This document shows, piece after piece, positions 4,338 to 38,380 of a stretch of 38,622 bases of DNA. How positions within the stretch are numbered: the stretch's first letter is position 1; each line of letters begins with the position of its first letter. The notes beneath the pieces were generated by a model, which saw only the letters and a program-made list of their open reading frames with translations, had not been told where the DNA came from and did no database searches. Source of the stretch: Amphiscolops sp. MND2022 (Eukaryota); contig OZ076411.1 of NCBI GenBank assembly GCA_964187785.1, forward strand, positions 25,321,379 through 25,360,000. The letters are read 5' to 3'. Made by a program: the position numbers and the translations under genes.

Positions 4338-9785
<5,448 letters not shown>

Positions 9786-11985: not shown

Positions 11986-12001
11986 TATAGTTGAAAAATA
12001 C

Positions 12002-12262
12002 AAAGATCCTATTATTCTGTCTGTGGGTGAAAAAGATGAAATCTCAATCGCGGACGCTGTGCAATACATCTGCAAAGCTCTGGATTATCCATTCGACCAA
12101 TTAGAGTTTGACACGTCAATGGCGGATGGGCAGTTCAAGAAAACCGTATCCAATGAACGCCTTCTGAAATTTCTGCCTGACTTCAACTTCACCTCATTCG
12201 ATGTCGCAATCAAAGAAACATGCGATTGGTTCGTTGAAAATTTTGAATCGTGTAGAAAATGA
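12002..12262 (+). pseudogene. Duplicated 3' part of GFUS exon 4 (KDPIILSVG...CRK*)
   Basis: Identical to 9525-9785; lacks the first ~83 codons of the exon. Confidence 0.9.
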
Positions 12263-13509: not shown

Positions 13510-14462
13510 CAGTACTCTGATTAAGAAATCGCCCCCCTATGCGCAGAGCGTCGTTATCAATCAATTAGAATTGCGTATTTGCTCTCACTTTCAATTCTGA
13601 TTGGCGCATCAAGTGAAATCTCCGGCGCAGAAAGAACACTTCTATTTTCCCAGTTTTGGGCAGGTTTTTGAAATATTTTTCTGAAACTTAAATTTATCGA
13701 ATTTTGCAGTTTGTATTGAATTCAATGATATATTTGTTGTTTCAAAAACATTCTAAATGAAAAAATAAGTTTGTCGCCGCGAAACGTTCATTTCCTATCT
13801 TAATACATGTAAATCGAAGAAATTTTACCTTTCGAGCATGCTATTTCAAAAACGGTTGATAATTTTTGAAATCGAAAAATATCCATAGATTCAGTAGATT
13901 TGTGCGAGTTATTTGAGCATAAAACTTGCCAAAAAACATGTGGGTAACCCAGTCAAAAATTGGAAAAACGGAAAAAAGTCCCAAATTTGCTCAAAATTAG
14001 CTATATGTAACTTTCTCAATTTTTGTCCCAGAAAAATTGAAAAACACTAATATAAACTAGATAAAATTCTAAGAAACTTTTATTTTTGATGTTTTTGCAC
14101 ATAACGAAGTCAATGTGAATTGCAGTCCAGCTAAGTAAGTCTTTTTTTCCACTATAGTCAACTTCATAATGAGCGCCTTTTAGAAAAAAAACCAAAACCC
14201 CAGAGAGATTCGAACCTGCAGCCTCCCGATTGCACGGCATAAGTGTTGACCACTGTGCCATAGGGACGTTATTGAACAAAGTTGAACTATTGAATATATA
14301 CGCATGCGATTAAAATAATATATATACGCATATTAAAATAATCGATGTCTTCGTCATGTGTTGCGAAGCACCGCTTCGCCTCTGTGTTCGAAATTCTCAA
14401 CTGATTTCAAGCAAATCGAGCCTAAAATTGCCCCTGGGGACGTTTTCTTAATCACAGTACTG
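13510..14462. mobile_element. MITE copy 2 (part of the tandem duplication)
   Basis: Same sequence as 11033-11985 at +2477. Confidence 0.85.
14195..14267 (-). pseudogene. tRNA-like unit, copy 2
   Basis: Duplicate of 11718-11790. Confidence 0.65.
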
Positions 14463-17225
14463 TATAGTTGAAAAATACAAAAGTTTCAGACTCGAACTAC
14501 AGAGTCATCATAAAGCTAAACTCATGATTCCAAGTATTTCGCTGAATAGTCAAAAACTTACTCAGAAACCGTGCTACGAAACCAGTTTTGGTTTCCCTAG
14601 TTTCTTGAGTAGAATATTGTTTGTCTAGAACAAGAACTCCCTGATTACCTTGGTGGAAACTTTCGTGCTGTCGTGATTCTGCTTCGCTGATTCAAGTTTC
14701 GAAAAATGTCCATGCAAACTGATAAATTCAAGGTTATATTGCACCTGAATAAAAAAATTGAAACCTAAACAGTTTTTTTTTCGTTTTGAGTGGAGCGTCT
14801 TTCATTTCTACTCCCTCTTTCATCTGTTCCAAGAGCAATGACTTCAGCCACAGTAATATTCAGCGCAATGAGATCAATATTCTGAGATTATAAATTAAAT
14901 CTTTTTGTTCCAATTATAGTCGAACCCCAAATCAATGCATTTGTTACAATTTCTTAGAACACTGGGCAATTGAAGCAACTAGTTAGTAGCTTGATGTGCG
15001 CAATTCAGGAAATTTTTCCCAGAAAGGTTTTGACTAGCAAAATGTAGAAGTTCAATATCGAAGGTTCTTTATCTCAATTTTTCCGCGATGTGATGAGCAC
15101 GAAGTAAACTGTAAACGTTTTGCCTGAAACACTTTTCAACAGATCTGAAGATCATGTATCATACTCAAAATTTGATATGATACAGTAATTTCTAGTGCTG
15201 TCAAAAATGAAACGTCGAAAAACGTTTGAAAAAAACCACGTGAACTTGTTGGTGGCCCAGAAATCTGAGTCACGAGTTGATGTACCAATCAGAATGAAAA
15301 CGACATCAAAAGATTGCACGTCAAAAGAATCAGCGAAATACTACGCTGAAAAGAACGGAAACAACAAGAACACCGATAGCTACCAAATATTGGTCATTAA
15401 AACCCTACCTGCGAAACAAATGTCACAAATCAAAAAAGTCCAACTCGGCTAAAACTTGGGAAATTTTTTTCTCTTTCCAGAAATGTCTCATAGTGACGAA
15501 AAACCCAAAAGGAGGCCTCCAAGTTTGCAACACGTTCTTAAGTCAAAATCAGAATTTTAGCTTTTTTTCTAGTACCGCCGCTTCGTGGCAATTCCGCTCT
15601 TTGCGGGGGCTTTTAGTATCAACAACAGCAAATTGTTTCGTTTTGGAGCACAGCGTCTTGCAGTGTGGAAGAGTCTGGGGCGAAAGTAGTCAGAAGGCGA
15701 AAAAAAGTAGGGTACCTTAAAGTACCGCTTGGTTTTCCAGGGTCACGAAGTTGAACAAAACAAATCGAACAAACAAATTGCACAAAAACCTTTGAGACCT
15801 TGTTAGTCGGCACCTTATGAAGTGAAACGCGACTATTATAGTGACTTTTTTTTCAATTCACACCAACTGACCAAAATAGTTCTACAGAGTTCTACGAAAT
15901 TTTATGGTGACAATTGAACCATTTGGACTGGCGAACTGAACCAAAAAGGGTTTTCTGTTTTTCCGCGTAACATACAATACCGGGAGAGACTAAAGCGTCC
16001 CCTTTCAGTTTTTTTGGCATTGTGATACTTTGCTAAAAAATCCAAAAGGGTCCCCCCTTTTACCGCGCCGGCGCTAAATTCGGTTCAATTCTTGGGTTTT
16101 TCGGGTACTGTAAAAGAATACCTATCACTTTGAAGACCTTTAGCTATTTTTGAGCCTTATATATGGTTCCCGGGTTGTTTTCTTTCATTTCTTCTTTGTG
16201 GATCTTTCGAAAATTGGAGGGGTAAGTCAGATGATGATTTCTTACAATGATTCTATTATAGACTAATACTAATAAATAATGTTGTTTTGGAAAATGGGCC
16301 AGTGTCAACATTCAACTGGTTCGAGTCCGGAGTTTTTGTTTGCGGTAGATTTTACTTTTTAACTCTTTTTTCGACAGCATATAATTCCGAAAACTTTCTC
16401 CACATAGAAACTTACCGAAGACTCAAAGTTAATATTGATCAAGCTGCTGGAAAATTTTAAACGTTTCGCGCTGTGGAAAATGAATAATTCTGAGACGAGA
16501 TATTGCATGCAATTGTTTTTCAAACCGTGAGCTAATCAATTATTTTTTTGTTACACGGTATCGCGCGCAATATATTTTTTTTACAAAACTGAAGCTCTGC
16601 AGAAGAGAACACAGATGATTTTGTTGCAAAATGAAGAAGCAATCATTGGAAAAAGTTTCCGATGTTGAAAAACTTTTGCTCGTGTATGATTTTTTCTTGG
16701 TAGAAATTTTCGAAGAGTTGTAGTGTTGAAAAAATTGTGTCTATTGATTTTCCAATTCAATCAAATGAGGCGCATGTTTCCAGATTGCTCGCGAGATAGC
16801 AAATGAGGGACATATTCGGGTCAAGTTGGAATAGAGCTGCTTTTAGAAAAAACGTCTGTGACTACTCGTTTATGACAAAAGAGTGAATACTACGAATCTC
16901 TATGCAGGAACAATTTGGAAAACCTCCCTTAGTTAAAACAAATGCTGCTTGATCATCAATCTCATCATAGTTCAGTGTTGAGATGGGACCTTTCTTAAGT
17001 TTTAAAGCTAGGAATTCGTTCATGGTCAACTTGGATTTCAATGGCGATGACTCGGAGAGCAGGTTTGCTCCGTTTACTTCCTGATTGGAAGGTTTTGTGG
17101 ACAGTCTTGTAGCATAGTAGCTATTCAATGATTAAATTGTCGCGTCTGGTAAATGTCACAAATAGGTTAGTGATTTTTTTTCAGCATGTTTGCACACTCT
17201 TTGGTCTGTTTTACCAGATAATAAG

Positions 17226-17922
17226 ATTCCATATGTTCTCCTTAGATGAAAGAAATTTCCTTTACATAGATAATAGCCTTGTTATCCCGCAAGCTAAGTG
17301 AGCAATGATCATGTGTTCTTCACAATTCGGACACCCAGGCGGAGATGCCATGCTAGGTATGGTATTTGACATTTGATGGCCTAAGATTCACAGGGAGCTG
17401 ACGAGAAAGTGCGGACATACTTGCAAGCAGGTGAGAATTTGAAGTGTATGTTTAAACAGAAACAAACAGGAAAAATACCTGAAGTAACAGAGATGAATGG
17501 AGAGATAGCATAGAAATGAATTTTGCAGGACCGTTTTAGACATTCTCTCAACATTCAAACTTCATTGTTTTCAATTGAGATTCCATCAATTATCCTACAA
17601 CACTAAGAGATTGCTGGAATATCTAACTTGGTTTAGGAACGCTCCAGTGCAATGAAGGACTGCTGAGCCTTATTAGAGTTTTTGAGCAACTTCGAACAGT
17701 TTGTCAGTCCTGCTCAAGATCATTCATCAAAATATAATGAAAAAATGATTGTAAAGATGAATTCACGTCTTCATAAAGTCAAAACCATTTCATCAGAAAA
17801 CATGTGCTTTTGATACTGTTATACCGAACACTGGAGATCAAAAATGCAGGTTGAGGAACTCAGAGCAAAAAATTGATAGAAACATGTATGATAACATTTA
17901 AACATAAACAAATGTTCATCAT
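17226..17922 (+). repeat. Partial unit of a ~1.41-kb tandem array (decayed Gypsy integrase HHCC fragment), interrupted by the LTR element
   Basis: Similar to about 33330-34027 and 34745-35415. Translates in pieces as SLDERNFLYIDNSLVIP...FGHPGGDAML...WPKIHRE...QAGENLK...FAGPF. Confidence 0.85.
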
Positions 17923-19698
17923 TGTCATGCCAGCATGATGGAAATATAATCTACTAAATATCTGTAATGTAAATATTATGTCTTATGTACTTAGATATGG
18001 GCAATATGATGTCATATAATAAGATCCATGGTTGTGAGCAACCCTACGTTACTTGTACTTAACCCCCTATTTTCCCCAGTGAGATTTGAGCTATTTATTT
18101 AATTAATACTGAGCATTCTAGTTCAGTTTGTCCGCAATTAGTGATTGTGCTAATAAGCAAATGATGCTATTCTACATTTAATGGCTTGTCACGAGGAAAG
18201 AAAGTAGTTTCTCGGTCAAACTGGACCGCCATGACAAATAGACGAGATTGAACACTCGCTAGGGAATTCCCGCCTCAGAGGAAACTAGCGTGGCAAGCCT
18301 CCTCTCTTTGAAATACACGAAACGATGAAATAACGATGTTATTGGTGCTAGAACTCATAATTTGACTCAATCTAACAAATTTCATCCATATTACATCGCC
18401 TAACTGTGACCAGAACGCTAGAAAACGAGAGAATTGAAACACGATGTAAAAGCGATGAAACTACTTGATTGAGGGACTTGTTACCATATGTTTCATCATT
18501 TGTACATCGCTCACGCCTCCAAAACCTGAAAACGGTGCTAAAATAGCTAACGATGGATAAACGATGGAAATCTTTCATCGTTTTCTCATCTAGAGCTGAA
18601 TCACGCTTCCAAGACCTGAAAACAGTGCTAAAATCAGGAACGATGGAAAAACGATAGAAATCTTTCATTGTTTTCTCATCTATAATCAAAATTCACCAAT
18701 AACTATGGTAAAGCGATGTAACCACTCCTGAACGATGCACAGTGCTCTCCCCACCACTCATTTCATCGTTTTCACATCTAGTTGATCGTTTCAACACTAG
18801 AACAAAGCTCATTCATCATTCCTGCATCCACAGCCACATAAACAGAATCAACTAGTAGAAACGATGCCAAAACGACAAAACTACTGAATCCCGTATCTCC
18901 AGTTAAATTAGCGCTATTGATTCATCGTTTTTACATCATACTTGTTTAAAGTTGATTTAATCGACCCCCAGCTGGATTGTACCCCATTTTGATGTGATTT
19001 CGACACTTGCCGTGACTCAGACGATGCTTACTACAAGTTACTAATTTGAATGCATTAAATATTCATAATAATTGGTTTAAATAGATTCAGCGCGCAATTT
19101 CAGCTTGGTAGCCCTCCAGCGACATGCGATACAACCGGTCTAGTGACCAAGTGCTAATTAGCACCTTGCTAACTAACCAATAAGAACGAAACGATGGTAA
19201 GAATTGAGTCTTACCATCGAACTGGTGGAAGGCTACCGGAGAGACAACACAAGATTTACTAACGCTACATTGTACAAGTACTTATATTTACTTACCCTTT
19301 ATACGTACCTTACTCGAGCTTACAACAATTCAACTCTTATCCACAACAATCATCTCTTTCTCATCGTATGAGTTCTAATTCCCAAATAACCTTGAGAAAC
19401 GGGAAAACGTTAACTGGCACTACTTCAGTAGATTCAACAGAACTTACTCACGAGGAGCAAATCGTTAACATGGAAAATGACAACGAAAATGTAGATGATC
19501 AAACCCAATCAAGACAAAATTCATCAGGTCCAGAGATAGATTCACAGAGGGCAAATGATGAAAGATTTAGCCACCTACAATCAGAAATGTCTATGCTGAA
19601 AGCTATGATGGAAAAGTTGCTAGAACAAAACGAGGAGAGAAATAGACAAACGGATACCAATGCCGCAACGTCCTCGTTCGCGGTACGGTCGTCCAACA
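17923..19698 (+). repeat. 5' LTR (1,776 bp)
   Basis: Runs TGTCATGCC...GTCCAACA and aligns end to end with 30835-32609. Contains a ~90-bp internal tandem pair (18512-18592 / 18602-18682). Confidence 0.97.
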
Positions 19699-19711
19699 TG
19701 GTGACAGGAGT
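19699..19711 (+). other. Primer-binding site TGGTGACAGGAGT (probably tRNA-Leu)
   Basis: Begins with TGG immediately after the LTR's CA. From memory it matches the tRNA-Leu-type PBS TGGTGTCAGGAGT at 12/13. Confidence 0.75.
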
Positions 19712-20841
19712 CAACAGGACTCACAGAAACCAACGCAACTATTTCCACGACGAAGAAGATGAAGAAGATTACGAAGACACACCAAGCAACTCAACAGAGA
19801 CCGCATTACTCAACGCCATCCAAGATCTACCAAGGAAATGGCAGAAAACAAACACGAAACTCCTGCAAACCCACGTTCCCAATTTCCGAGGCTCTAAAGA
19901 CAAATACAACGAATTCGAGCACCTCTTACTTAACCATTTCCGACCCATCGCCAACAAGATCACAGAGGAAGATAAAATACACTTCTTCCAGAGCTTACTC
20001 CGCGATGAAGCCATTGACTTTTGGCAATCCATCACCATCAACCCAACCACCACTCTACAGGACATCCTGCAACTATTCAGAAAAGAGTTCGCAAAAGAAG
20101 ATATGAGAGAAGTCGCCCGCTACAAATGGAATGAAGCCAAATACGACCCGACCACCCAGACATTCGGAGATTTTCTAAAAAACCTCAAGAAAATAGCCAA
20201 GCAAGCATACGGCGACGAGGCTGACCAATGCATCAAGATGTTCCTCTTCGGGAAAATACCAAGCGAAATCCAACAAGAGCTGACAATGGCGAACAAGGAA
20301 GACAGCAGCCCCGAAGAAATCAAAACCTACCTACTCAGAAAATACCAATATCAGAACGTCCTACAACAACCTGCAGCGACATATCAGCCATTTAACCAAA
20401 TGTCTGATAACAACCCCAAACGAGAATTCACACGCTCCGACCAATCTCAGCCCAAACCAGACATCAAACGGTTCGATGGATAATGCTTCTACTGTGGTAA
20501 ACAAGGCCACAGGAAACAAGAATGCAGAGGACGCCAAAGAGATGAAGCTAATGGCATTAACAAACCAGACGCCATACAACCTACCAAACGGCAAGATGAA
20601 GATAAGCCAAAATACAACCCAAAACTGGTATGCCAGATTTGCGGTATACTGGCCACTCAGCCAAGGACTGCAGAAAAAGAATCCCAAAGCAAACGAGCAC
20701 ACCCTACGGACAACTACCATATCAACGAACAGATGAACAAGAGAACAAAGAACGACGACGAGAATTAAAACAACAACAGCGCCCCATGAACCAAATGGAA
20801 ATACAAGACAACGACGAAGATCCATCCTCAGAAGGAGAACA

Positions 20842-20848
20842 GGATTTT
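20842..20848 (+). other. Candidate -1 ribosomal frameshift heptamer G_GAT_TTT (gag to pol)
   Basis: In phase with gag, one codon before the gag stop. The -1 frame is open from here into the protease ORF (ATG 21031). Confidence 0.65.
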
Positions 20849-20853
20849 CAGTA

Positions 20854-23800
20854 AAGCCACAATTTCACTCCGCGAACAATCGAAGTGCGCACCCACACTC
20901 TGACTCCAAAACTCACTCGACTCAACAAACTCAACGCAATCGTCACCAGAGGTCTTGGCAGCCCTCTGGTGATTCCAGCAAAGCAGACGAAGTCTATCTG
21001 CGAAGAAACCAGAAAACCGATGAACAACCGATGAAGTCAATGCGGACTACCAACAAATTCACCCCATTGGAAAATTCACTCGATGAGCAAACGATGAACT
21101 GGCATAACGACGCATTGAGGCCTGCGCACGATGCCAAAGAGATGTACTCACATCTACAACCGACGGACCGACTCTCAACCGATGACAAATCGACAAAACG
21201 GCTTAGTAGCAAAACAATTGCAAACGACAAAAATAGTAGTACCAAAACTAAAAAACATGCAACCAATAATCAATTTCACGTACTTAGTCCCACATTACAT
21301 TTAAATAAAAAGGATAAGATGTTGTTTGTTCCCCTCCAGTTTAACAGCTACGAAAACCAAGGTCTTTTAGACACAGGAGCAGTGCAAAGCGCACTTTCGG
21401 AAGCAGAATTACGCAAAATCACTGCTGCTCATCCCGAAGCAGTACTAGACGAATTACCACCCCCTAACTTCAAAGTTCAGATAGCTAACGGAAGCTTGGT
21501 CCCCATTCGAAAACAAGTCCTTCTACGCTTTTTCATAGCTGGAAAAGTATTTGAAGAAGTCTTTTTAGTCCTCCCAACAATGGGAACAATCCTGATTGGA
21601 ATGTCGTTCTTTGAAAAATATTCGGTCAACCTTGACATCAAAAATCATTTAATCCACTTTCCAAACCACATGATGTCAATGCAAGTGAGACAACAGACGA
21701 ATAAAAAGTTCAAAACTGGATTAATTAATTTGTATTCCAGCAGCCGAACCACCATCCCTCCCCACCATCAAGTACTGATTGAGGTCCACAGTGACGAGGA
21801 CATATCACGTACAACCGGTACGGTAGAAGGGACTCCAGCATTCATGCGCAAGACGTGTCTCTTGGTGTCTCCAGCAGTGGTTGAACTAGACGATGGCAAA
21901 ACGATGATTCAGGTCACCAACCCCAATGAGCACGTGTACACACTCGAAACCAACACCAACCTAGCAAACTTTATAATACCAACGCCCCACCAAGTTGCCA
22001 ACATCACACCGATGCCAGTCGAACACCTGAAGTTGATCACCGATCACCCCGACGATGCAGCAGCAGTGATCAATCAACTCTTTGTGAACACCGAGATGAA
22101 GTCTACAAAATGGTACCCGACACCAGAGACGTGTAGTGAGCCAGACAAACTCAACAAGATCGAACGACGCATTTTCGATGAGATTCTGGCCCTCAGAGAA
22201 CTGGAGAAGCTCGACCCTACCCACTCCCATGAAGAACGAGTCAAGTTCCTGCAGAACTTCAAGTGGGAGGAATCACTTCTCTCTCCATCTCAACAAGCTC
22301 AGGTAGAGGAGTTGCTGGTAAAGTACAACTCCATTTTTGCTAGACATCGTTTAGACATCGGCATGAACACTGATTTTAAAGTAAAATTAACACCCCAGCA
22401 TGAAGAACCGGTGTACTCCCAAAGTCTCCCTACCCCTACTAACCTAAAAGATGACTTGCTTGTAGAATTAGCGTTAATGCAGGAGTACGGGATTATAACT
22501 ATTCTTCCTTACAGCAAATACTCTTCACCGATATTTGCTCAGCGCAAACCGAATGGTAAACTAAGGATTTTAGTTGACTTGCGGAGAATCAACCACCTGA
22601 TCAAGAACGATTACGGCGAACACAACCACCCAGTCACAACCGTTTGAGACGCTGCTCAACACATGGCCGGGAAAAAATATTTCTGTAAACTTGACTGTTC
22701 CCAGGCCTACCATTGCATTCCAATGGCTGATGAGCAGTCAATCCAACTTTTGTCTTTCAACTTTGGATCCCGCACCTTTGCTTTTCTTAGACTAGCTCAA
22801 GGTCTTAACCGTTCTCTTTCAGCCTTCACCAGCGTAGTCCGCGAGTACTTGGACCCCTTGGTCAAAGCGGACCGCTGTGCCCAGTATGTTGACGACATAG
22901 GCATAGCAGCAGATACGCCTGATGAATTGATTGAAAATTTAGAACTTGTTTTTCAGCAGTTGACCAAAGCTGGTTTAAAACTCAGCATGAATAAATGTGA
23001 TTTCGGCCAACAACAAATTGAATACTTTGGAAAATCAATTTCTAGCACTGGAATAGAACCCATCGAAAAACGAATAACTGATTATTTGAAGAAACTCAAA
23101 CCGTCCAATTCAGTCAAAGCTCTCCAACGGTACTTAGGATTTGTCAACTTTTACAGGTCCTACATTCCCCGGTTGGCAGACAAAACAGCCGTTCTCCACG
23201 AGTTAATCAAAAAAGACACTACCTTTAAATGAGAACAACGTCACAAAGATGTAATTTTTGACATTAACGAAAGTTTACTCAAGGCTACTAAACTGTCATT
23301 GAAACTTCCCCTTCCGGATAAACAATTAGTAATCATGTGTGACGCGAGTGAACACGCAGCAGGTTATGTTCTTTTAATAGAAGACTACTCTGAAACACAA
23401 TCGGGTAGCTTGAAGAAGTACGCACCAGTTGCTTTTGGCTCTAAGAAATTTCAGGGTGGACAGATGTCATTAACAATGTACGCTAAAGAATTTTTAGCCA
23501 TGCACTTCGCGTTCGACGAGTTCGGTCACATTTTGTGGGGTGCAAAGAAACCTATAATTGTAATGACAGACAGTAAAGCACTCACCCGTTTCTTTCAGGC
23601 CAAACACATACCACCGTCACTTTGGAATTTTTGCGACCAGACGCTTCAGTTTAATTTTATTTTAGCAGATGTACCAGGTGTAGAGAATCCCGCAGCGGAT
23701 TACCTTTCCAGGTTGGAAATTCGACCTGAAGACCGTGTTCATCTAAAATTAACTGATTCCATTCCAGTACACCACATAGAAATTGAAATCGCCTCGAAGA

Positions 23801-26000
23801 CGCCAAAACAGGAGGAAGACGAACCAGACTACTTCCCTCCTAGCGAAACACTGAGACAGAAGAGGTCACACGATGCTAAACCGATGAAAGTGATCAACTC
23901 TGAGACAGTGACGACTGATGATGGCAAACTGATGATTTCAGTTGACGCAGCGACGGCAGACGGTGACGATGACAAGACGATGAACTACGTACATTCCACA
24001 CCACTGGCCTCTGAGAATGATCACACAAGCTCCCCTCAGATCTACCAGCTAATGCCTGACGCTCACCTACCAGAGTACACTAGATTCATCGTAAAAACAT
24101 CGTTACTACACCCGGTAACGAAAGAGGTTAGCCCCCAAGGGGGAGTCGATCTAATTTTAACCCAAAAAACAGATAGTGACATTCAACTTATGTTAAAAAT
24201 TTTGTCTGGCGAAACAACTCTAACCCACTCTGTGAACTTGATGTCAACGTTTTTCCAAAAACTCCACAAAAACCGTAAACGCCTTGAAAAAGTAAACGGA
24301 GCTCTGTACCGTATCTTTTATGACCATACTGGCCTTGAGTCCCATAAACAAATCGTCGTACCTGATCAAGTCATGCTAGAAATAATCAGGTCCTTACACA
24401 GTAACCCTGTACAGGGACACCCCGGCTCTAAAGAGATGTTACATGAACTACGCAAACGCTACTTCTCTCCAAGTCTTGCTGAAAAAACACAAAAAATACT
24501 CGAAAGCTGTGAAAATGCATGCGATCGAAATCGACGAACGAATCAAAGGTCCGTCCACCGTTACAGAAAATTTACGACCCGTGTAACGGCCCTTCTGATC
24601 TGATGGAAGTTGACATAGTCGGACCACTGCCTGCATCAAACGGATTCACACATATCCTGACCGCAATCGACGTATTCGCGCGTTATTTGTTTGCTGTACC
24701 GCTACGAAAACCCGATACACCATCCGTAGTTAAGGCTTTACTGTCGGTATTCGCCAAACACGCGTACGTCCCAACGCATATCCTGACTGACAAAGGATCC
24801 GTGTTCACCGCCGAACTATTCCAACAACTGACCAAAGCCATAGGCATTGAAATCTCCCATGCAACTGTAAAACATGCACAAACCATAGGCATGGTTGAGA
24901 GAAGTCATGCAAAACTTAAAAAGATCCTAAAAATACATGTAAATGTAGACAGACCACAATGGGACCGCTATGTCGACATAGCAAGCATGGCCCATAACAC
25001 AACGTACCACACTTCTCTGAAATGCTCACCAACTGAAATCTTTCACGGACGCACTCGATACAACGCTTTGGACCTAAAATACTCTAACCCCGAAAGACGA
25101 GTCGACACCAAGTTTGGAGACGTCAACCAGATCCTAAACCTTATGAACGAAATCTACCGAAATAACACAGACAACATAGTAGCTGCATACCACAAGTACA
25201 AAGCTTATTATGACAGAAAAGCCAAAGCACAACCGCTCAAAGTGAACGACCTTGTTTTCCTACTTGACCCCAAATACGACTCTCAGGGTTGCAAAGAAGA
25301 GTTCAAGACCTTCCACTGGAAAGGTCCGTTCAAAGTGATGAAAGTGCTGTCCGACAGTAATTACATCATACGAAAGGTAAGAACGTTCAAAACACAATGC
25401 GTTCATCGTATACGACTGAAAATCTTCAAACCGGAATTCCCTGTAGAAGACGTAGAAATCAGCAACCAACCAGTATACGCTGACACGGACCGAACGGAAG
25501 ATTCTGATATTTTCGATTCCCACATTCCCACACAAACAAACATAAACTCCAACTCGGACGAACCAGAAACTGATGAAGAAACACTAGTTGAAAGAGTCAT
25601 TCGAATCAAATCACCAGATTATCGACAGCCAATCAAACACGACAGACCACTGAACCGACTACCGAACCGACTGTCGTTAACACCACAACCGGAAATAATC
25701 ATAGACGACCTGCCTCTAAACGCCCCACAGGTGCAATTAAACGAAAATGATGATATAAGTCCACAGGAAATCATTCCAGATACAGCGAAACAAACAGAAC
25801 CATCAACAAAACCTGCCAACACCGAGACACCCCGACAGGTGAACAATGACGAAACGCCAAATCTGATAGCAACGAGGACAAATAAAAACAAATATAGTCT
25901 ACGCGAAAACCCTCAGCCGAAACGCTACTCAGACTTCCTAATTCATGAAATCTCAACTGCTCGAAACGCTCTACGCAAAACAAACACTACTTTACAGTAG
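20854..26000 (+). pseudogene. pol: pol: protease, RT, RNase H, integrase; two in-frame stops (22645-22647, 23230-23232) and one frameshift (~24515)
   Basis: PR LLDTGAVQS. RT YSSPIF, LRILVDLRRIN, QYVDDI. RH CDASEH, KEFLA, TDSKAL, ADYLSRL. INT HSNPVQGHPG...C/C, EVDIVGPL, LTDKGSVF, GMVERSH. The ORFs at 21031, 22663 and 23299 share one frame. Confidence 0.95.
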
Positions 26001-26092
26001 AAAACGACAGAAAAACATGTAAACGACAATCTCACATCAAAACGATGGTTAAATAACACCCCATCGTGAAGAAAAAGTGAAATTACCAGAAA

Positions 26093-27333
26093 CGATGTAA
26101 ATCCGATGGAACATTTCCATCGGCAGCACATCGCTTCCAGAAACACATAAAATTCAAATGAGTTTAACGATGGTTCACATCCATCGTTTTCTCATCCCAA
26201 CCTTCTCTCTGACCATGCCACAAAAACAATCTGAGTTTCCATGACCTGTCTGTTGATTATCCGTAGGCTTTGCCTCGTGTCATCTGATGAACGACCCTCA
26301 GTTGATGAAAAATTTAATTACCAACTGCTAGATGGAAATTAGACAAACTACCGCATTTGACTACAAACTTATAACAGCACGATGTAAAAGAGATGGAATT
26401 TCTCCATCCCTTCTACACCTCCCTTCTCTCTACAATTACATTCAGTCAAGAGAGAATAATCATCAATCGTCAACAGACCATAGGCCTTGCCTTGGGTTGA
26501 CATTCGGTTCATTACCGCCCTGATTGAGGACACCGAAAAGATACAACTGCTATTCATTGGCTAACGCACCCACAGACACACGCCGATGAAAAAACGATGG
26601 AAATCTTCCATCGTTAGTTCATCGCTTCCACTCCCCAACGCAAAATTAACTAGTTATCAGGCGACGATGGAAAACGATGAAAATGTTTCATCGTTATCGC
26701 ATCGTCTCACAGTTCGTCGAGCAACCTTAACAAGCTCATCGACACGATGATAAAACGATGGAAAACCTCCATCGTTTCACACAACTCTTGAAGAACGCAC
26801 GAAAACCAACCCTGATGGAAAACCGATGAAAATCTTCCATCGGGTAATCATCGCTTTTAGAATTTCCACCTCAAATGAACCAACTCTTAGCCAACGATGA
26901 TGGAATGATGGATATACTCCACCGTTCCACTCACCTTTTATATCTCAACGCCAAAACCCACTTAAGCCTCTGTATCGATGCCTACACGATGAAAATACTT
27001 CATCGCGTGCACATCGCTTTGAAAGGTTAACATGAAACTCAGACTATTCATGCAATTCAAAGGTACATGTAATTTCACGCACGCGAGTACAACAACAGTC
27101 ACGATGTATAACAGATGGAGTTTCCCCATCACTTAATCACTGGTAACAACCTAACATGAAAACTACCTAAGTCTCGTAACCTACACTTCGAATACATGCA
27201 ACTGAGCCCCGCGATGGGAAAACGATGAGAATGTTTTATCGTTTACTCATCATCCAAAGGATTCATACTAATTTACACACAAACGCAATTACAGATGAAG
27301 TAACGATGGAAATTTTCCACCGCCCTCTCATCT
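26093..27333. repeat. Array of about 12 copies of a 41-bp motif CGATG-N6-CGATG-N9-CATCG-N6-CATCG
   Basis: Exact copies at 26093, 26584 and 26976. Near or partial copies at 26168, 26380, 26665, 26745, 26813, 26895, 27102, 27212 and 27293. Confidence 0.9.
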
Positions 27334-27564
27334 CCCTAATCAGCCTGCCTACCAATTAACTCCCACCTTATGGCACACGAAAACTCTAACTAAATGTTCA
27401 ATTCAGAAAATCTCTAATAACCTTAGCACAAAGTACAAAAATAAAAGAACAACAATTATAGCAAAATCCCAACACAAATGTTAGTGCTTCGCACTTTCTA
27501 ATAATACTGTTAAAACTCAATCAAAGTTAAAACAACGAAGAAACAAGTGTGAAATAAATATTTT

Positions 27565-30500
27565 TCAAAATCGATGCTCTCCGCCAATTTCCGGACTCGC
27601 AGGCCTTCCTCCATCCGACGTGAAACCTAACAGCTCCAAAACTGCACCACGATAACCATCAGGAGACTCTCTGCCGATTTCATCCCACAAACTGCCTAGC
27701 GTGACGTCTCGCAAATCTTCCGATCTTCCAATCACTTCGCTACTTTCCATCACTAAGCCATCGGGGATACTCTGTAAACCCCGCACATTTCGGGCCTCAC
27801 ACCAACTGAGGATTGTCAGGAAAATACTTCTAAGGGACTCTGAAGATAAAACTGGCAAGCAAATATTGACCATCTGAACATTTTGGATTACACTGCCGCT
27901 CAAACACAACGACAACTGCATCATTCGCCGCAAATTAGCATCGTTAGTTCCATACTGCAACAGCTCCCTATCATGGACATCTGATGCATACTCACTCGGT
28001 TGGTCATCTCGGAATTGTCTGACGAAGCGTACATAAGATTCAGACATCGCAATTCTTTCTTCTCCAGCTATAACACTATTTCCCTCTAGAGCTTCAAGAA
28101 AGTAGCCAATTGTTTCCTCTATTTCATTGATACTTCCGCACATCAGCACAACCGGACACCAACATGCTAGGGCCATATTGACTTGATCAGAAATCTGTGG
28201 CATCCGTAGCAAGTTCATAGCAACGGTGATCAGGAACTGCCGCTCGATACTCCCCCCCACAAGCATATCGGGCACGATGAGCTTCGAAAGTCCGATACAA
28301 CTGTGACTCTCTCGCTGCACTTAACCGTAGATCTCCGATTTGAAAATTGGCCCAGCGGTGCAACTCAAATGATTCCGGAACTGTCGCAGGTTGAGCAACC
28401 ATCAAGCAAAGTTCTCGGACGGTACTCAGCAACTCATTGACAGCATACAATCCGCGATGCATACTTCCACCGAAAGTCTGCTTCATGTTCTTGAGTACTA
28501 AAACAACAGGATTAAAACACAACACGCCAATGACCAGATGCTAATCCGATGTACACTGTATAACAACGCCCTCACCTAGTACAGACCTAACAAATCACTC
28601 GAAATAGTAGTTCCACGCCACATGACATTTTTCCGATGATAACTATAGACAGTTCTCCCAACCCTCATACAACGCGACGGAAAACCGACAAAACCTGTAT
28701 AAACGTAATTACATGTAACAAAAGCAAAAATCTAACCAATGGAGTATACCGCTCCCATAGCATGCAATTTCAAAGCTAGTCCTGATTCCTGCAAGATTAT
28801 TAATTCCATCCGATTGGGATCTGCACTTCCTCCTAACTGATCAAGACGCTGTACCAACGCCAGAATACTGTCCCACGACTGATGTAACTCCTCCAGGACA
28901 GAGACAATCTCCCAATTAGAGATTTCACCGGTTACGACACACTGAAATAAAACACATTACTTACACACCTCACGTCAAATTCCAAGATGACCACTACGTG
29001 TTCTTAACTCCAAAACTCTTGCCGAACTGAAACCAAATATATGAACACACTAACATGCAACAAGGCAGGACAACTGCGTAACACAGGATCAGTCAAACAG
29101 TCGCGAAGCTTCCCCAGAAGAAAGTTCATCACCACATGAACGTCCTGCCCGACGAACACAGACAATCCAGCGGTTGTAATAATCTGCAATACGGCATGCA
29201 ATTGTAACGGATTCAGCTGCAACCCGCGTCGGCCGCCGTCTCCTTCTAACAACCCTCCAACAGATGAGAGACATCCACAACTGATCCCCAATGGGACAAA
29301 GTCATCAACCACACAACTCCAGTAGTCCGCGAGCCACTCAGACACTCGCCTCTCCCAGTCGCCAGTAGCTACGACCTCAAACAGGACCACACCCTGCACT
29401 GCGTCTGCCTCAGCCACACTGACAGAGCAACGAACGACACTCCTATCCAACTCCAGATATAGTCCAACAGGATTTTCACCACATAGCGAAGCTGCGAGTG
29501 TACGGACGACATAAGGCCACACTCCGAAGATCAAAAGCGCCTGGAAAAAGTTAAAAAAAAATATTCCAAAACACCAATCAGCCTCACGACAATAGCACAC
29601 AAAACTCCCCTCAGAACCTAGATCATTTACCCGTCTATAGACACAGCATGAAGGTTATTAGGAAATTCCAAACATGTAATAACATGTATACATGTAAGTC
29701 ATGAAACATATAATTACCACTACGTCTTCCTTTCGGCATCCACCACCGAAAAGACTTCTGTACGACACGTCCGTCGTCGACAAGGAATCCCACAAATTGG
29801 TGAGTCCCGTCACGTCACCACCTCGATAAAGCGCGTCCACGACGACACACAGGAACATCCTCAGACTGCGTTCTGTATCAGGCACTTCCTGCACGGTCGA
29901 ACTCCAGATACTGCCGCCTCCTGACTCAATCCGGAACACATCCGGCACTGACAAGGCAGGACACACTTCCACGTCAGGCACTGACAGCCCACGTAACTCT
30001 TCAACCATTCGCGCCGCTTCTAACACGCCCATCACGGCACCAGTAGGACGTCTTAGCAACATTCCACGTCGCAGACGCACCAGACAGTCTAACCTGTGAT
30101 GGATCACGCCGCGACAATGTTCCAGATAGGTCGAAATCCCGCGACTGCCACCTTCAAATCGCGACGACACAAGAGACATCGCACATAAGCATCAGATGAG
30201 CGATGCTCACGAGCGAAGCCAAGCGAGATTCCGGCATACGGGTGTTGAAACCAAGTCGCGCGAATGCTGTTTAAAGCGACTAAAACGAAATCCGATGGAT
30301 AAACGATGAAACTACTTAACTGCAAATAGAACTGAATGGAATTCATTCATAATAACCCCCCTGATGTAAAAACGAAGTTTTAGTTAAATTAGCTAAGAGA
30401 AAACTTCTACCGACTGAAAAAAAAATCAAAACTACTGAAAAGAAAGTATCGAGAAAACGATATCAAATCACACTTGAAAATAAAAATACCCACGCCCACT

Positions 30501-30834
30501 ACGTATTCCGAAAAAGCACATAACTTGCAAGACAGTGAATCACGTGATCGATGAAGTTGTTTAGTTTACCTGCCCGAACTGACTGCCTGACAACAACTGG
30601 ACCAGGTTGTGCAGATGAACTGACGATGGAAGTACCAGCCTCACCCACAACGGCAACATTTCCAGATGACTCGGCAACGTCTTCATCATCAAGGATCATC
30701 GCATCTGCCTTCGCCGCTCATCCTCAGGGACTGCCTCAATGTCCTCTGACTCCCTGGAAGGCGACTCCACCACGAACTCACGACGCGTCTGTGTTGCTAC
30801 ATCACGTGACGACTCCGACGCTTCCGGTCCACAG
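27565..30834 (-). pseudogene. Antisense multi-exon accessory gene: acidic N-terminal region, C2H2 (BED/TTF-like) finger, putative inactive hAT-transposase-like fold; frameshifted and 5'-truncated by the 3' LTR
   Basis: Consecutive minus-strand ORFs with in-phase GT-AG introns: 30569-30280, 29717-29541 (phase 0, KEDVV|ALLIF) and 28736-28695. C-x2-C-x16-H-x5-H at about 30178-30099, split by a frameshift near 30146. The hAT assignment is by-eye inference. Confidence 0.7.
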
Positions 30835-32609
30835 TGTCATGCCAGCATGATGGAAATTCAATCTACTAAATATCTGTAATGTAAATATTATGTCTTATAT
30901 ACTTAGATATGGGCAATACGATGTCATATAATAAGATCCATGGTTGTGAGCAACCCTACGTTACTTGTACTTAACCCCCTATTTTCCCCAGTGAGATTTG
31001 AGCTATTTATTTAATTAATACTGAGCATTCTAGTTCCGTTTGTCCGCAATTAGTGATTGTGCTAATAAGCAAATGATGCTATTCTACGTTTAATGGCTTG
31101 TCACGAGGAAAGAAAGTAGTTTCTCGGTCAAACTGGACCGCAATGACAAATAGACGAGATTGAACACTCGCTAGGGAATTCCCGCCTCCGAGGAAACTAG
31201 CGTGGCAAGTCTCATCTCTTTGAAATACACGAAACGATAAAATAACGATGTTATTGGTGCTAGAACTGATAATTTGACCCAATCTAACAAATTTCATCCA
31301 TGTTACATCGCCTAACTGTGACCAGAACGCTAGAAAACGAGAGAATTGAAACACGATGTAAAAGCGATGAAACTATTTGATTGAGTGCTTGTTACCATAT
31401 GTTTCATCATTTGTACATCGCTCACGCCTCCAAAACCTGAAAACGGTGCTAAAATAGCTAACGATGGATAAACGATGGAAATCTTTGATCGTTTTCTCAT
31501 CTAGAGCTGAATCACGCTTCCCAGACCTGAAAACAGTGCTAAAATCAGGAACGATGGAAAAACGATGGAAATCTTTCATCGTTTTCTCATCTATAATCAA
31601 AATTCACCAATAACGATGGTAAAGCGATGTAACCACTCCTGAACGATGCACAGTGCTCTCCCCACCACTCATTTCATCGTTTTCACATCTAGTTGATCGT
31701 TATAACACTAGAACAAAGCTCATTCATCATTCCTGCATCCACAGCCACATAAACAGAATCAACTAGTAGAAACGATGCCAAAACGACAAAACTACTGAAT
31801 CCCGTATCTCCAGTTAAATTAGCGCTATTGATTCATCGTTTTTACATCATACTTGTTTAAAGTTGATTTAATCGACCCCCAGCTGGATTGTACCCCATTT
31901 TGATGTGATTTCGACACTTGCCGTGACTCAGACGATCCTTACTACAAGTTACTAATTTGAATGCATTAAATATTCATAGTAATTGGTTTAAATAGATTCA
32001 GCGCGCAATTTCAGCTTGGTAGCCCTCCAGCGACATGCGATACAACCGGTCTAGTGACCAAGTGCTAATTAGCACCTTGCTAACTAACCAATAAGAACGA
32101 AACGATGGTAAGAATTGAGTCTTACCATCGAACTGGTGGAAGGCTACCGGAGAGACAACACAAGATTTACTAACGCTACATTGTACAAGTACTTATATTT
32201 ACTTACCCTTTATACGTACCTTACTCGAGCTTACAACAATTCAACTCTTATCCACAACAATCATCTCTTTCTCATCGTATGAGTTCTAATTCCCAAATAA
32301 CCTTGAGAAACGGGAAAACGTTAACTGGCACTACTTCAGTAGATTCAACAGAACTTACTCACGAGGAGCAAATCGTTAACATGGAAAATGACAACGAAAA
32401 TGTATATGATCAAACCCAATCAAGACAAAATTCATCAGGTCCAGAGATAGATTCACAGAGGGCAAATGATGAAAGATTTAGCCACCTACAATCAGAAATG
32501 TCTATGCTGAAAGCTATGATGGAAAAGTTGCTAGAACAAAACGAGGAGAGAAATAGACAAACGGATACCAATGCCGCAACGTCCTCGTTCGCGGTACGGT
32601 CGTCCAACA
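30835..32609 (+). repeat. 3' LTR (1,775 bp)
   Basis: Same termini as the 5' LTR, followed directly by the TSD ATCAT. Confidence 0.97.
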
Positions 32610-32623
32610 ATCATATCCCATAA
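32279..32623 (+). CDS. LTR-encoded Gag N-terminus (110 codons) in the 3' LTR, running 4 codons into flanking DNA
   Basis: Identical to gag residues 1-110 except D43Y. Ends at TAA 32621-32623 in host sequence. Confidence 0.6.
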   Translation: MSSNSQITLRNGKTLTGTTSVDSTELTHEEQIVNMENDNENVYDQTQSRQNSSGPEIDSQRANDERFSHLQSEMSMLKAMMEKLLEQNEERNRQTDTNAATSSFAVRSSNNHIP

Positions 32624-35415
32624 AAAAACTTTCTGTCAGCACTGAGACTTTTTCGAGAGGAATCTATCTGAAAATTTTTTTCTCTTTTTGTTTTGTTAAG
32701 TGAGATAGGCGTTTGATAGTGATATATCCGCTTCTATATATCTAAGCAAATATAGTGAGATCATAGACAAAAACATTATTTAATTTGTGATAACCTCTCT
32801 ATGGATAACTTGTCCTGTGGTATTGAAATTTGGGTGCAAGCAACTTTGTTGAAACAGTTCAAACTGAGCAGCAAACTGATAAAATTATTGTAGCACTCAA
32901 AGCTACTTGAAAAGCCAACACAGAACAAAAAATCCACAATTTGCATAACAAACTATCCAAATTGATGCGGAGTTTTCACGGGAAAACTACAGGTTGATGT
33001 GGAAGCTGCCGGTTTTGTTTGAATGATGTTTTAAATGGCAGCGCGAAAGCAAGTGAAAGAATCAAGGCGGCAGAAATGATTGATGAGAATAGGAGCGTCA
33101 ATCGAGTGAACGAAGCAAAAAAGAAGCGACCAGCCAGATCGCTAGAACAACGAAATCAGACGAAACCAAACAGGATTAGTCTTAATAGCACCAAATTGAA
33201 AGTGAAATGAGTCAGAGGCTCTCAATTCCCGTAATAAATTACGCGGCAAATACTATCATCCGAAAAATCATCATTTTAGTGAAAAATATAACAGAACCAC
33301 GAAAAGCCGGTTTTCTATTTGAAAAATTCCATGTTATCCTTAGATGAAAGAAATTTACTTTACATAGATAATCGCCTTGTTATCCCGCAAACTAAGTGAG
33401 TAATGATCATGTGTTTGCAATTCTGACACCCATGCGGGGTTGCCATGCTAAGTATGGTATTTGACATTTGGTGGCATAAGATTCATCAGGAGCTGACACA
33501 TCCGACGAGAATGTGCGGACAATGCTTTCAAGCAGGTGAGAATTTGAAATGTATTTTTAAACAGAAACAAACAAGAAAATTACGGAAAGAATAGAGATGA
33601 ATGAGGTGTTAGCATAGAAATAAATTTTTCAGGACCGGTTCAGACATTCTTTCAACATTCAATCTGCATTGTTTTCAACTGAGATTCCATCAGTTATACT
33701 ACAACACTAAGAGATTGCTGGAATATCTAACTTGGTTTAGGAACGCTCTAGTGAAATGAAAGACTTCTGAGCCTTATTACAGTTTTTGAGCAACTTCAAA
33801 CAGTTCGTCAGTCCTGCTCGAGAACATTCATCAAAATATAATGAAAAAATGATTGTAAAGATGAATTCACGTCTTCATAAAGTCAAAACCATTTCCATCA
33901 GAAAACATGTGCTTTTGATGCTGTTATACCGAACACTGGAGATCAGAAATGCAGGTTGAGGAACTCAGAGCAAAAAATTGATAGAAACATGTATGATAAC
34001 ATTTAAACATAAACAAATGTTCATCATATCCCATAAAAAAGCTTTCTGTCAGCACTGAGACTTTTTCGAGAGGAATCTATTTGAAAACTTTTTTCTCTTT
34101 TTTTTTGTTAAGTGAGATAGGCGTTTGATAGTGATATATCCGCTTCTATATATCTAAGCAAATATAGTGAGATCATAGACAAAAACATTATTTAATTTGT
34201 GATAACCTCTCTATGGATAACTTGTCCTGTGGTATTGAAATTTGGGTGCAAGCAACTTTGTTGAAACAGTTCAAACTGAGCAGCAAACTGATAAAATTAT
34301 TGTAGCACTCAAAGCTACTTGAGAAGCCAACACAGAACAAAAAATCCATAATTTGCATAACAAACAATCCAAATTGATGCGGAGTTTTCACGGGAAAACT
34401 ACAGGTTGATGTGAAAGCTGCCGGTTATGTTTAAATGATGTTTTAAATGGCAGCGCGAAAGCAAGTGAAAGAATCAAGGTGGCAGAATTGATTGATGAGA
34501 ATAGGAGCGTCAATCGAATGAACGAAGCGAAAAAGAAGGGACCAACCAGATCGCTAGAACAACGAAATCAAACGAAACCAAACAGGATTAGTCTTAATAG
34601 CACCAAATTGAAAGTGAAATGAGTCAGAGGCTCTCAATTCCCGTAATAAATTACGCGGCAAATACGATCATCCAAAAAATCATCATTTTAGTGAAAAAAT
34701 ATAACAAAATCACGAAAAGCCGGTTTTCCATTTGAAAAATTCCATGTTATCCTTAGCTGAAAGAAATTTACTTTACATAGATAATCGCCTTGTTATCCCG
34801 CAAACTAAGTGAGTAACGATCATGTGTTTGCAATTCTGACACCCAGGCGGTGTTGTCATGCTAAGTATGGTATTTGACATTTGGTGGCATAAGATTCACC
34901 AGGAGCTGACACATTCGACGAGAATGTGCGGACAATGCTTTCAAGCAGGTGAGAATTTGAAATGTATTTTTAAACAGAAACAAACAAGAAATTTACCGAA
35001 AGAACAGAGATGAATGAAGAGTTAGCATAGAAATAAATTTTGCAGGACCGTTTCAGACTTTCTTTCAACATTCAAACTTCATTGTTTTCAACTGAGATTC
35101 CATCAGTTATACTACAACACTGAGAGATTGCTGGAATATCTAACTTGGTTTAGGAACGCTCCAGTGAAATGAAGGACTGCTGAGCCTTATTACCGTTTTT
35201 GAGCAACTTCAAACAACTCGTCAGTCCTGCTCAAGAACATTTATCAAAAAAAGTGAGAAAATGGTTGTAAAGATGAATTCACGTCTTCATAAAGTCAAAA
35301 CCATTTCCATCAGAAAACATGTGCTTTTGATGCTGTTATACCGAACACTGGAGATCAGAAATGCAGGTTGAGGAACTCAGAGCAAAAAATTGATAGAAAC
35401 ATGTATGATAACATT
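32610..35415 (+). repeat. Two units of a ~1,413-bp tandem repeat (32610-34022 and 34023-35415), derived partly from decayed Gypsy RNase H/integrase sequence
   Basis: atcatatcccataaaa recurs at 32610 and 34023. The units are highly similar but not identical. Remnants HK(K)A-LSALR and YIDNRLVIP...WWHKIHQE...QAGENLK. Confidence 0.9.
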
Positions 35416-37752: not shown

Positions 37753-38380
37753 CATCCCGGGTCGACCCTCCATGGATATCTTAGAAAGATCTTGGCAAGA
37801 TCTTACCAAGATCTTGAAAAATCTTAGCTAAGATGGTGACAAGAATTGCAAAATATCCAAAAATTGCAAGATATCATGGTAAAATCTTATCAAGACAGTC
37901 ATGTTTCCAAGAAAAATCTTGCTAAGAAGCCCAATATGGCAAGAAACATCTTACTAAAAAGCCAATTATATCAAGAAAAAACTTGCTACGAACTGCTTGA
38001 TATCAAGAAAAACTAGAATCAGAAAACCACTAAATTAAAAGTTCTGCAAAAATAATCTAGATATCACTCAAAACAAAATTACTGGATGACCTTTACAACC
38101 ATTACAAACCAGAACGACGATATTTTCTCAATTTCATAATGAAAACCCCTGAAAAGACCTTGTACGTTGGTTTTCATTTCACAGGAATAAGCTCTAAAGC
38201 TACTGGAAAAAGGTCTAAAATTCTTATATGAATGTAACTATTTTCAGCCTTCCTGATAGAAATTTTGAAACCTTAGAACTTTTTCAATCTTGGGGTAATG
38301 ATTTGCCAAGATGTAGTAAGAATTTGGCGAGTTCTTGCCATGGCATCCAAGATGCCAGTAAGAGGGTCAATCCGGGATGG
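37753..38380. mobile_element. MITE (~630 bp) with CAAGA/TCTTG-rich interior
   Basis: TIRs CATCCCGGGTCGACCCTC (37753-37770) and GAGGGTCAATCCGGGATG (38362-38379) match 16/18. TA at 37751-37752 and 38381-38382 (one extra G on the right). Confidence 0.7.

What the first reader, a model, noticed from the sequence alone, without database searches (positions are those of the whole stretch)
26093..27333. Fixed-geometry CGATG operator-like array in the post-integrase spacer
Seen: about 12 copies of CGATG-N6-CGATG-N9-CATCG-N6-CATCG. The pentamers and their spacings (11-bp period between direct repeats, about one helical turn) are conserved, while the N6 spacers vary freely and do not pair with each other (aaaaaa/ttagtt, cctaca/cgtgca, taaatc/gcagca). 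The sequence between copies is unrelated, so this is not a simple tandem repeat. The N9 core covaries (GAA-nnn-TTC versus AAA-nnn-TTT). Inference: either a four-half-site binding element for a multimeric DNA-binding protein, or an RNA hairpin with a 6x6 internal loop (a packaging signal or protein-binding array).
Basis: partly seen in the sequence, partly recalled or inferred. Interest (0 to 1): 0.85.

Follow-up and report, generated by a model that had tools for sequence, protein, structure and literature searches.

The report
Retrotransposon self-recognition motif array
A jumping gene marks itself from end to end with a short, precisely spaced DNA motif and carries an extra backwards gene that may read that mark, which would be a plant-style self-activation trick in a kind of element where I found no report of it.

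Summary
The array is real (10 window matches at up to 3 mismatches, 0.00 by chance), but two details of the finding are wrong. It is not confined to the post-integrase spacer. The basic unit is the half-site (C)GATG-N6-(C)GATG: 39 exact cores lie across a 14.7-kb Ty3/Gypsy element (one LTR counted), 0 in 22 kb of flank. Seven are threaded into gag-pol coding sequence, far above synonymous-shuffle expectation. Also, the N6 spacers do pair, copy-specifically. The array lies between pol and a conserved, spliced antisense gene of no known family, whose first conserved-looking exon has a BED-like C-x2-C...H-x5-H pattern split by a frameshift. Best reading (0.45): a double-stranded DNA self-recognition tag read by that element-encoded protein, working like plant VANC/TnpA. 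For it: lone half-sites, uncompensated pentamer changes, variable gaps between halves. Main rival (0.30): an RNA hairpin array (Rev/RRE-like or packaging), favoured by the covariation. Binding, binder identity and hAT origin are inferred, not shown; no related DNA loci could be fetched.

The parts
26093..27333 (.). Spacer array: 12 inverted pairs of half-sites with 9-nt gap, starts 26093, 26157, 26380, 26584, 26664, 26745, 26813, 26895, 26976, 27102, 27212, 27293
17923..19698 (+). 5' LTR, 1776 bp, TG...CA; ATCAT target-site duplication flanks the element
   Evidence: 27 differences to the 3' LTR
30835..32609 (+). 3' LTR, 1775 bp, with the same motif cluster (about 31235-31850)
18323..18938 (.). 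LTR motif cluster: two 9-gap copies (18551, 18641; a 90-nt tandem duplication) and four long-gap copies (18323/18383, 18442/18494, 18703/18764, 18862/18923)
19192..19219 (.). Perfect 11-bp inverted repeat with one pentamer per arm, 6-nt loop
   Evidence: I19
19699..19710 (+). Putative primer-binding site (starts TGG) directly after the 5' LTR
   Evidence: tRNA not identified
19368..20735 (+). gag-like ORF starting inside the LTR, interrupted by a stop at 20481-20483, zinc knuckle downstream
20737..26000 (+). pol: protease, RT, RNase H, integrase in Ty3/Gypsy order; broken by stops (22645-22647, 23230-23232) and frameshifts
21018..21144 (+). Three lone half-sites in coding sequence (21018, 21081, 21129) upstream of the protease, no cognate partner within 400 nt
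21891..22360 (+). Half-sites at 21891 (forward) and 22345 (reverse) in pol
23871..24102 (+). Half-sites in the RNase H-integrase tether (23871, core at 23920, 23967 forward; 24087 reverse)
27565..28497 (-). Last exon of the antisense gene, about 310 codons, helical, frameshifted near 28240 in this copy
28737..28941 (-). Antisense exon; register with the last exon supported by homologues that run through this junction
29055..29540 (-). Antisense exon of 162 codons; homology stops at the predicted splice sites; predicted three strands then helices (low confidence)
29714..30319 (-). Predicted upstream antisense exon with C-x2-C (30178-30167) and H-x5-H (30119-30099) about 16 codons apart, in different frames; BED-like finger candidate. 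No homologues retrieved
28536..30628 (+). Lone half-sites in the antisense region (28536, 30293, 30613); a reverse one at 27748

Best explanation
The motif is a family-specific self-recognition tag read on double-stranded DNA. SHOWN: the unit is (C)GATG-N6-(C)GATG with an A-rich spacer and a fixed 11-bp period; it is spread over the whole LTR retrotransposon, absent from its flanks, kept at nucleotide level even inside coding sequence, and usually arranged as head-to-head pairs; the element also carries a conserved spliced antisense gene. INFERRED: an oligomeric protein contacts the two pentamers on one face of the helix, and the inverted pairs and clusters (LTRs, post-integrase spacer) give cooperative high-occupancy platforms. 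By analogy with plant VANC and TnpA it would keep its own family's chromatin open or drive its transcription, with feedback on its own promoter beside the 3' LTR cluster. The copy-specific arm complementarity would then come from inverted-duplication origin and template-switch homogenisation.
For: 39 exact GATG-N7-GATG cores in 12.9 kb of element, 0 in 22,331 flank bases; the five other spacings tested give 6 in the element altogether. 7 exact halves in gag-pol coding sequence, at most 3 in 3000 synonymous shuffles; all 5 forward ones use the one codon phase that avoids CGA-TGN. 6 of 9 lone forward halves have only background-level partners within 400 nt (10-12 of 19 WC); mean predicted pairing of lone halves is 0.59/0.63 on the two strands against background 0.48/0.66 and 0.85 (+) for paired copies. 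Of 28 pentamer deviations among 150 positions in 15 paired copies only 1 is compensated; 7 of 14 at the tolerant C are mismatches on either strand; pentamers do not covary (89 vs 89.6). Wobble pairs favour neither strand beyond composition. Orientation 23 forward to 16 reverse. Antisense exons have 17 and 16 homologues at 49-97% identity and 53 representatives reaching 18-29% identity. Both frames holding C-x2-C and H-x5-H score as coding (the model picked the right frame in 34 of 44 held-out windows); the pattern fits the BED definition Cx2CxnHx3-5(H/C) (PMC4890040, passages). Precedents: VANC motifs (PMC5735166, passages), TnpA motif clusters and dead-transposase origin (10.64898/2026.08.24.746577, abstract and passages), BED binding to short phased motifs followed by AT-rich DNA (PMC10368747, passages).
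Against: Copy-specific covariation of N6 and inner bases is strong (18 cells changed on both sides against 9.1 +/- 2.5, 0 of 500 shuffles) and is not predicted by duplex binding alone. Every folded copy gives a hairpin on both strands (z -1.9 to -6.9). 11 bp is also one A-form RNA turn (own knowledge). Three lone halves still have high predicted pairing on the + strand (0.80-0.89), and 28536 has a 14/19 partner at 28804 (8 of 1500 random 19-mers reach that). Long LTR gaps (36-45 nt) are out of helical phase with the 9-nt gap, so no single tetramer geometry fits. The zinc finger is split by a frameshift, has no Pfam or PDB match and its conservation is untested; such a pattern can arise by chance in a Cys-rich protein. 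hAT ancestry rests on my recall of motif layout; Pfam and fold searches found nothing, with low-confidence models. CpG observed/expected is about 1.0 in the element and left flank, so a demethylation output as in plants is doubtful. All DNA evidence is from one decayed copy.
Confidence: 0.45

Rival explanations
1. RNA hairpin array. Each inverted pair folds in the transcript into an imperfect 19-bp stem that displays two CGAUG/CAUCG helices one A-form turn apart. An element protein (the antisense product, or Gag) binds them in multiple copies to export, stabilise or package the genomic RNA, as Rev does on the RRE or as CERV is needed for Cer1 RNA export.
For: Covariation at 9 of 19 pairs, 0 of 500 shuffles reach the observed cell count; consensus 10-bp stem with a 3-nt loop; z -7.6 (+) and -7.1 (-) for 26560-27060; long-gap LTR copies still fold arm to arm, as loop size would be free; perfect hairpin at 19192; possible long-range partner for 28536. 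CERV precedent: PMC10309623, abstract only.
Against: Lone halves kept under nucleotide-level selection without partners; 1 of 28 pentamer deviations compensated; no clear G-U strand bias (12 A-C, 6 G-U, 6 other in the inner stem); no Rfam family. The shuffle control ignores relatedness of copies.
Confidence: 0.3
2. Host transcription-factor sites. The element has accumulated a homotypic cluster for a host dimeric factor (germline or stem-cell enhancer), and the antisense gene is unrelated to the motif.
For: Clusters in the LTR, the usual place for host-factor sites; duplex-type evidence above does not identify the binder.
Against: 0 sites in 22 kb of flank that includes a host gene (a small sample); threading through pol and a strict 11-bp period over 39 sites is unusual for enhancers (inference); no matching host motif was tested.
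Confidence: 0.12
3. Single-stranded cDNA hairpins or cruciforms that act during reverse transcription or integration (pausing, strand transfer, loading of integrase or the accessory protein).
For: Arm complementarity without RNA strand bias; no purine-rich tract before the 3' LTR, so plus-strand priming may be atypical.
Against: Does not explain lone halves or the invariant GATG core; DNA folding energies were not computed.
Confidence: 0.07
4. Neutral relic: decayed units of an old tandem repeat of about 81 nt containing a palindrome, with no present function.
For: 5 of 11 intervals are 80-82 nt, weak similarity of some adjacent linkers; 90-nt duplication in the LTR.
Against: Linkers are near background while GATG cores are almost invariant; halves inside coding sequence exceed 3000 of 3000 shuffles; TRF finds no array.
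Confidence: 0.04

Closest known systems
VANC/VANDAL and Spm TnpA sequence-specific anti-silencing systems (PMC5735166 passages; PMC10398659 passages; 10.64898/2026.08.24.746577 abstract and passages)
   Same: Short motif at high density in the cognate element plus an element-encoded, spliced accessory gene; TnpA is reported to derive from a transposase.
   Different: Those are plant DNA transposons with single 8-10 bp motifs in non-coding tandem repeats and a DNA-demethylation output. Here: an LTR retrotransposon, a bipartite 11-bp-period motif in inverted pairs, also in coding sequence, linkers unrelated, no CpG depletion, no detected protein homology.
Retand (Tat) plant Gypsy elements (PMC11963269, abstract and discussion)
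   Same: Long pol-to-3'LTR region (2.9-6.6 kb; here 4.8 kb) with antisense ORFs proposed to bind DNA and regulate the element, next to repeat arrays.
   Different: Retand arrays are ordinary tandem repeats and the ORFs carry TRP28; no Pfam family was found here, and the motif is dispersed through LTRs and pol.
hAT transposase BED finger and subterminal repeats (PMC10368747 passages; PMC4890040 passages; PMC8097297 first 10,000 of 24,209 characters)
   Same: Short motif with AT-rich flank, direct and inverted copies at exact spacing, read by a multimer; candidate C-x2-C...H-x5-H at the protein's N-terminal end.
   Different: Sites are not beside terminal inverted repeats; no catalytic triad or dimerisation domain was detected; homology is untested beyond the pattern.
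Rev/RRE and Cer1 CERV (PMC10309623, abstract; Rev/RRE from search listing and recall)
   Same: Spliced accessory gene in an LTR element; structured RNA potential.
   Different: Here the gene is antisense and the element is dozens of short repeated dyads, not one large RNA domain.

Membership tests
Ty3/Gypsy LTR retrotransposon | LTRs TG...CA with 4-6 bp target-site duplication and PBS | tested here: met
Ty3/Gypsy LTR retrotransposon | Domain order protease-RT-RNase H-integrase | tested here: met
Ty3/Gypsy LTR retrotransposon | Polypurine tract before the 3' LTR | tested here: not met
   the 24 bases before the LTR are not purine-rich; an atypical feature, does not overturn the assignment
VANC/TnpA-type anti-silencing system | Short motif dense in the cognate element and scarce outside | tested here: met
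   (outside = 22 kb of flank only; genome-wide not testable)
VANC/TnpA-type anti-silencing system | Motifs sit in non-coding tandem repeats | tested here: inconclusive
   Densest in spacer and LTRs, but also in coding sequence; linkers near background
VANC/TnpA-type anti-silencing system | Carried by a DNA transposon (MULE or CACTA) | tested here: not met
   LTR retrotransposon; so not a member, at most works like one
VANC/TnpA-type anti-silencing system | Accessory protein homologous to VANC or TnpA | tested here: inconclusive
   No Pfam family for window exons or homologues; folds low confidence
VANC/TnpA-type anti-silencing system | Protein binds the motif and relieves silencing in trans | not testable with these tools
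   needs binding and expression data
Retand/Tat lineage | Long pol-3'LTR region with antisense ORFs | tested here: met
   4834 bp
Retand/Tat lineage | TRP28 domain in the antisense ORF | tested here: not met
   no Pfam match up to E 10 for the exons scanned
Retand/Tat lineage | RT phylogeny within plant Tat | not tested
   no named references were retrieved; the 120 listed integrase hits are unnamed
hAT-derived BED-finger protein | N-terminal Cx2CxnHx3-5(H/C) | tested here: inconclusive
   pattern present but across a frameshift; no profile match; no homologues of this exon
hAT-derived BED-finger protein | RNase H-like core, insertion domain, C-terminal dimerisation domain | tested here: inconclusive
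   strand/helix order compatible but pLDDT 37-50 and no fold hit
Rev/RRE-like RNA element | Conserved RNA structure with covariation | tested here: inconclusive
   covariation in flanking pairs, none in pentamers, no strand bias
Rev/RRE-like RNA element | Accessory protein binds the RNA and exports it | not testable with these tools
   experimental
Ordinary tandem repeat | Homologous head-to-tail units including linkers | tested here: not met
Known Rfam RNA family | Match at gathering score | tested here: not met
   one chance hit (E 0.25) elsewhere in the element

The most novel reading that the evidence does not exclude
A non-plant Gypsy lineage captured a hAT transposase gene, lost its catalytic function, and uses it as a private sequence-specific regulator whose bipartite site has been written about 40 times across the element, including inside pol: a retrotransposon-encoded protein-operator (anti-silencing or autoactivation) system. 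The inverted pairs might let the same duplex site be shown on chromosomal DNA and on single-stranded replication intermediates.
Probability: 0.25. Interest if true: 0.85.

Novelty: new variant of a known kind. Interest (0 to 1): 0.66.

Why it matters
Sequence-specific self-regulation by a transposon's own protein is documented for plant DNA transposons. Antisense ORFs in long Gypsy elements have been proposed to do this, but without a target motif (PMC11963269, discussion). Here a sharply defined motif and a candidate reader sit in one element, so the question of what such accessory genes do becomes directly testable by a binding assay. The protein family is diverse (53 representatives), so protein-motif co-evolution can be tested across clades. 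My searches (listings only) showed no report of this motif or of a BED/hAT-derived accessory gene in an LTR element; the library lacks most subscription papers.

Tried and rejected
Rfam: nothing at the motif. tRNA scan: none. Pfam on antisense exons and homologues: only scattered sub-threshold hits. PDB sequence searches: none meaningful. Fold searches of two low-confidence models: no significant match; XerD N-terminal domain at Z 5.9, rmsd 2.4, 68 aligned is within background and not used. Profile comparison with the window's MULE transposase: no similarity. Peptide footprint D-x-x-[TPSA]-M in 120 integrase homologues: 0 found, 3.3 expected; uninformative, since the window's integrase holds no half-site either. 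Exact full motif in bacterial and archaeal genomes: 7 isolated copies in 65-75% GC contigs, none in an array, taken as chance. Tiny 23-28 nt introns in the antisense gene: rejected, one 113-nt intron keeps the phase. P0205 among the 53 representatives is a low-complexity repeat and likely spurious. Rows dropped: 26664 from the alignment; 26157, 26664, 26745. The host is not established: an intron-bearing eukaryote; my guess of an acoel flatworm is recall, untested, and nothing here rests on it (PMC9911081, passages only). bioRxiv supplements of 10.64898/2026.08.24.746577 were not seen and may list further transposase-derived regulators. PMC5408684 and PMC13547354 (passages) showed no matching case.

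Full report
1. Observation. The pattern gives 10 matches in the window at up to 3 mismatches, against 0.00 in 100 shuffles. Six lie in 26093-27333 and a looser scan gives 12 there. The other four lie two in each LTR. The 11-bp period dominates (14 of 22 CGATG pairs, 7 of 12 CATCG pairs within 60 nt). The claim that the N6 spacers do not pair is wrong: 38 of 72 positions are Watson-Crick against 27.1 when right arms are dealt among copies (p=0.0008), and the three inner bases 28 of 36 against 21.3 (p=0.0014); outer flanks and pentamers show no such excess. An independent count on 13 aligned copies gave 18 doubly changed cells against 9.1 +/- 2.5; this control ignores relatedness among copies.

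2. Context. The array sits in a Ty3/Gypsy element at 17923-32609: LTRs of 1776 and 1775 bp with 27 differences, TG...CA ends, ATCAT duplication, TGG-starting primer site, and protease, RT, RNase H and integrase in order. This copy is broken by stops and frameshifts. The integrase has 324 relatives at E 1e-20 or better; the 120 listed are unnamed. The array lies between the pol stop (26000) and the stop of a convergent antisense gene (27565).

3. The unit is the half-site. Forty halves with at most one mismatch give (C)GATG-N6-(C)GATG; 16 of the 19 mismatches fall on the C, the spacer is A-rich and R-A-A follows the second pentamer. Exact GATG-N7-GATG cores number 10 in the 5' LTR, 9 in gag-pol, 16 in the spacer, 4 in the antisense region and 11 in the 3' LTR, and 0 in the flanks; five other spacings give 6 in the element altogether. 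In coding sequence 7 exact halves occur where 3000 synonymous shuffles give at most 3, and the five forward ones all use the phase reading D-x-x-[T/P]-M, the only phase without CGA-TGN. So the selection is on nucleotides. In the LTR the gap between inverted halves is 9, 9, 36, 44, 45 and 45 nt.

4. DNA or RNA. For hairpins: covariation, a 10-bp consensus stem, strong folding on both strands, a perfect single-pentamer hairpin at 19192, and a possible distant partner for 28536 (about 5% by chance over nine sites, my estimate). For duplex sites: six of nine lone forward halves have background-level partners and lone halves pair near background on average; only 1 of 28 pentamer deviations is compensated; wobble pairs favour neither strand beyond composition. 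Template switching is known to homogenise imperfect inverted-repeat arms (PMC8604942, start of abstract in listing), which could give covariation without structural selection. A sequence-specific protein on an RNA stem could equally give invariant cores with covarying flanks. The data lean to DNA but do not settle it.

5. Origin of the array. Linkers are near background (1 of 120 pairs p<0.01, the LTR duplication; 9 of 120 p<0.05), yet 5 of 11 intervals are 80-82 nt and three weak hits are adjacent linkers. This fits old duplication of an 81-nt unit followed by selective retention of the motif, not a neutral repeat.

6. The antisense gene. Two ORFs have 17 and 16 homologues at 49-97% identity. 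Homology of the 162-codon exon begins and ends at predicted splice sites. Identical longest-contig lengths link integrase and antisense hits in four cases I noticed (P0067/P0123, P0004/P0152, P0019/P0151, P0030/P0142), an indirect sign of co-location. A profile search finds 53 representatives, down to 18-29% identity, in several deep clades. Homologues P0200 and P0170 span the junction of the last two exons. Splice signals give a phase-consistent gene of roughly 700 codons or more (upstream exons are predictions). The upstream exon holds C-x2-C and, about 16 codons on and in another frame, H-x5-H; a frame model trained on the conserved exons favours the first frame over 30380-30201 and the second from 30140, and is undecided between. 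This fits the BED definition (PMC4890040). From recall, the order finger, three strands, helices resembles a hAT transposase; no tool confirmed it.

7. Mechanism. Most likely (0.45): the element labels its DNA with the half-site, and its own oligomeric antisense protein binds the clusters and sustains expression or open chromatin of the family, as VANC and TnpA do for plant DNA transposons. CpG is not depleted here, so the output is unlikely to be demethylation. Rivals: RNA hairpin array (0.30), host factor (0.12), cDNA hairpins (0.07), neutral relic (0.04).

8. Comparison and novelty. It is a Gypsy element with Retand-like architecture but no TRP28 match; it is not a member of the VANC or TnpA systems, though it may work like them. 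The motif is not a prokaryotic array (7 isolated chance copies) and has no Rfam family. Six literature searches showed no such case (listings). Verdict: real, wider than reported, new variant of a known kind, interest 0.66. The main limit is that all DNA evidence comes from one decayed copy.

Noticed in passing
window 19368-19698: The gag ORF starts about 330 nt inside the LTR, so the 3' LTR repeats the first 110 codons and the primer site lies within gag.
   Followed up: partly
window 30811-30834: No purine-rich tract before the 3' LTR.
   Followed up: no
window 9525-14481: Perfect 2477-bp tandem duplication; very recent or an assembly artefact.
   Followed up: no
window 17223-17922 and 32610-35415: The element is inserted into a 1413-bp repeated unit that by eye resembles a decayed integrase fragment of another LTR element.
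   Followed up: no
window 1953-3326: MULE transposase ORF of 457 codons; no similarity to the antisense exon tested.
   Followed up: partly
window 4340-9785: Intron-bearing host gene of the NAD-dependent epimerase family, GDP-fucose synthase-like by recall.
   Followed up: no
window 28536-28554 with 28804-28822: An intronic half-site is complementary, including 5 of 6 spacer bases, to an exonic stretch across the splice donor at 28736; could affect splicing of the antisense gene, or be chance.
   Followed up: partly
window 26044-26065: Single-pentamer inverted pair with a 14-nt gap just upstream of the array.
   Followed up: no
window 30570-30800 (-): Acidic, low-complexity candidate first exon of the antisense gene ending at a donor at 30569; start lies at or in the 3' LTR.
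   Followed up: partly
window 1600-32609: CpG observed/expected about 1.0 in the element and left flank, 0.7 in the right flank.
   Followed up: no
window 37778-37992: Short tandem repeats of 11-33 nt period at the window end.
   Followed up: no
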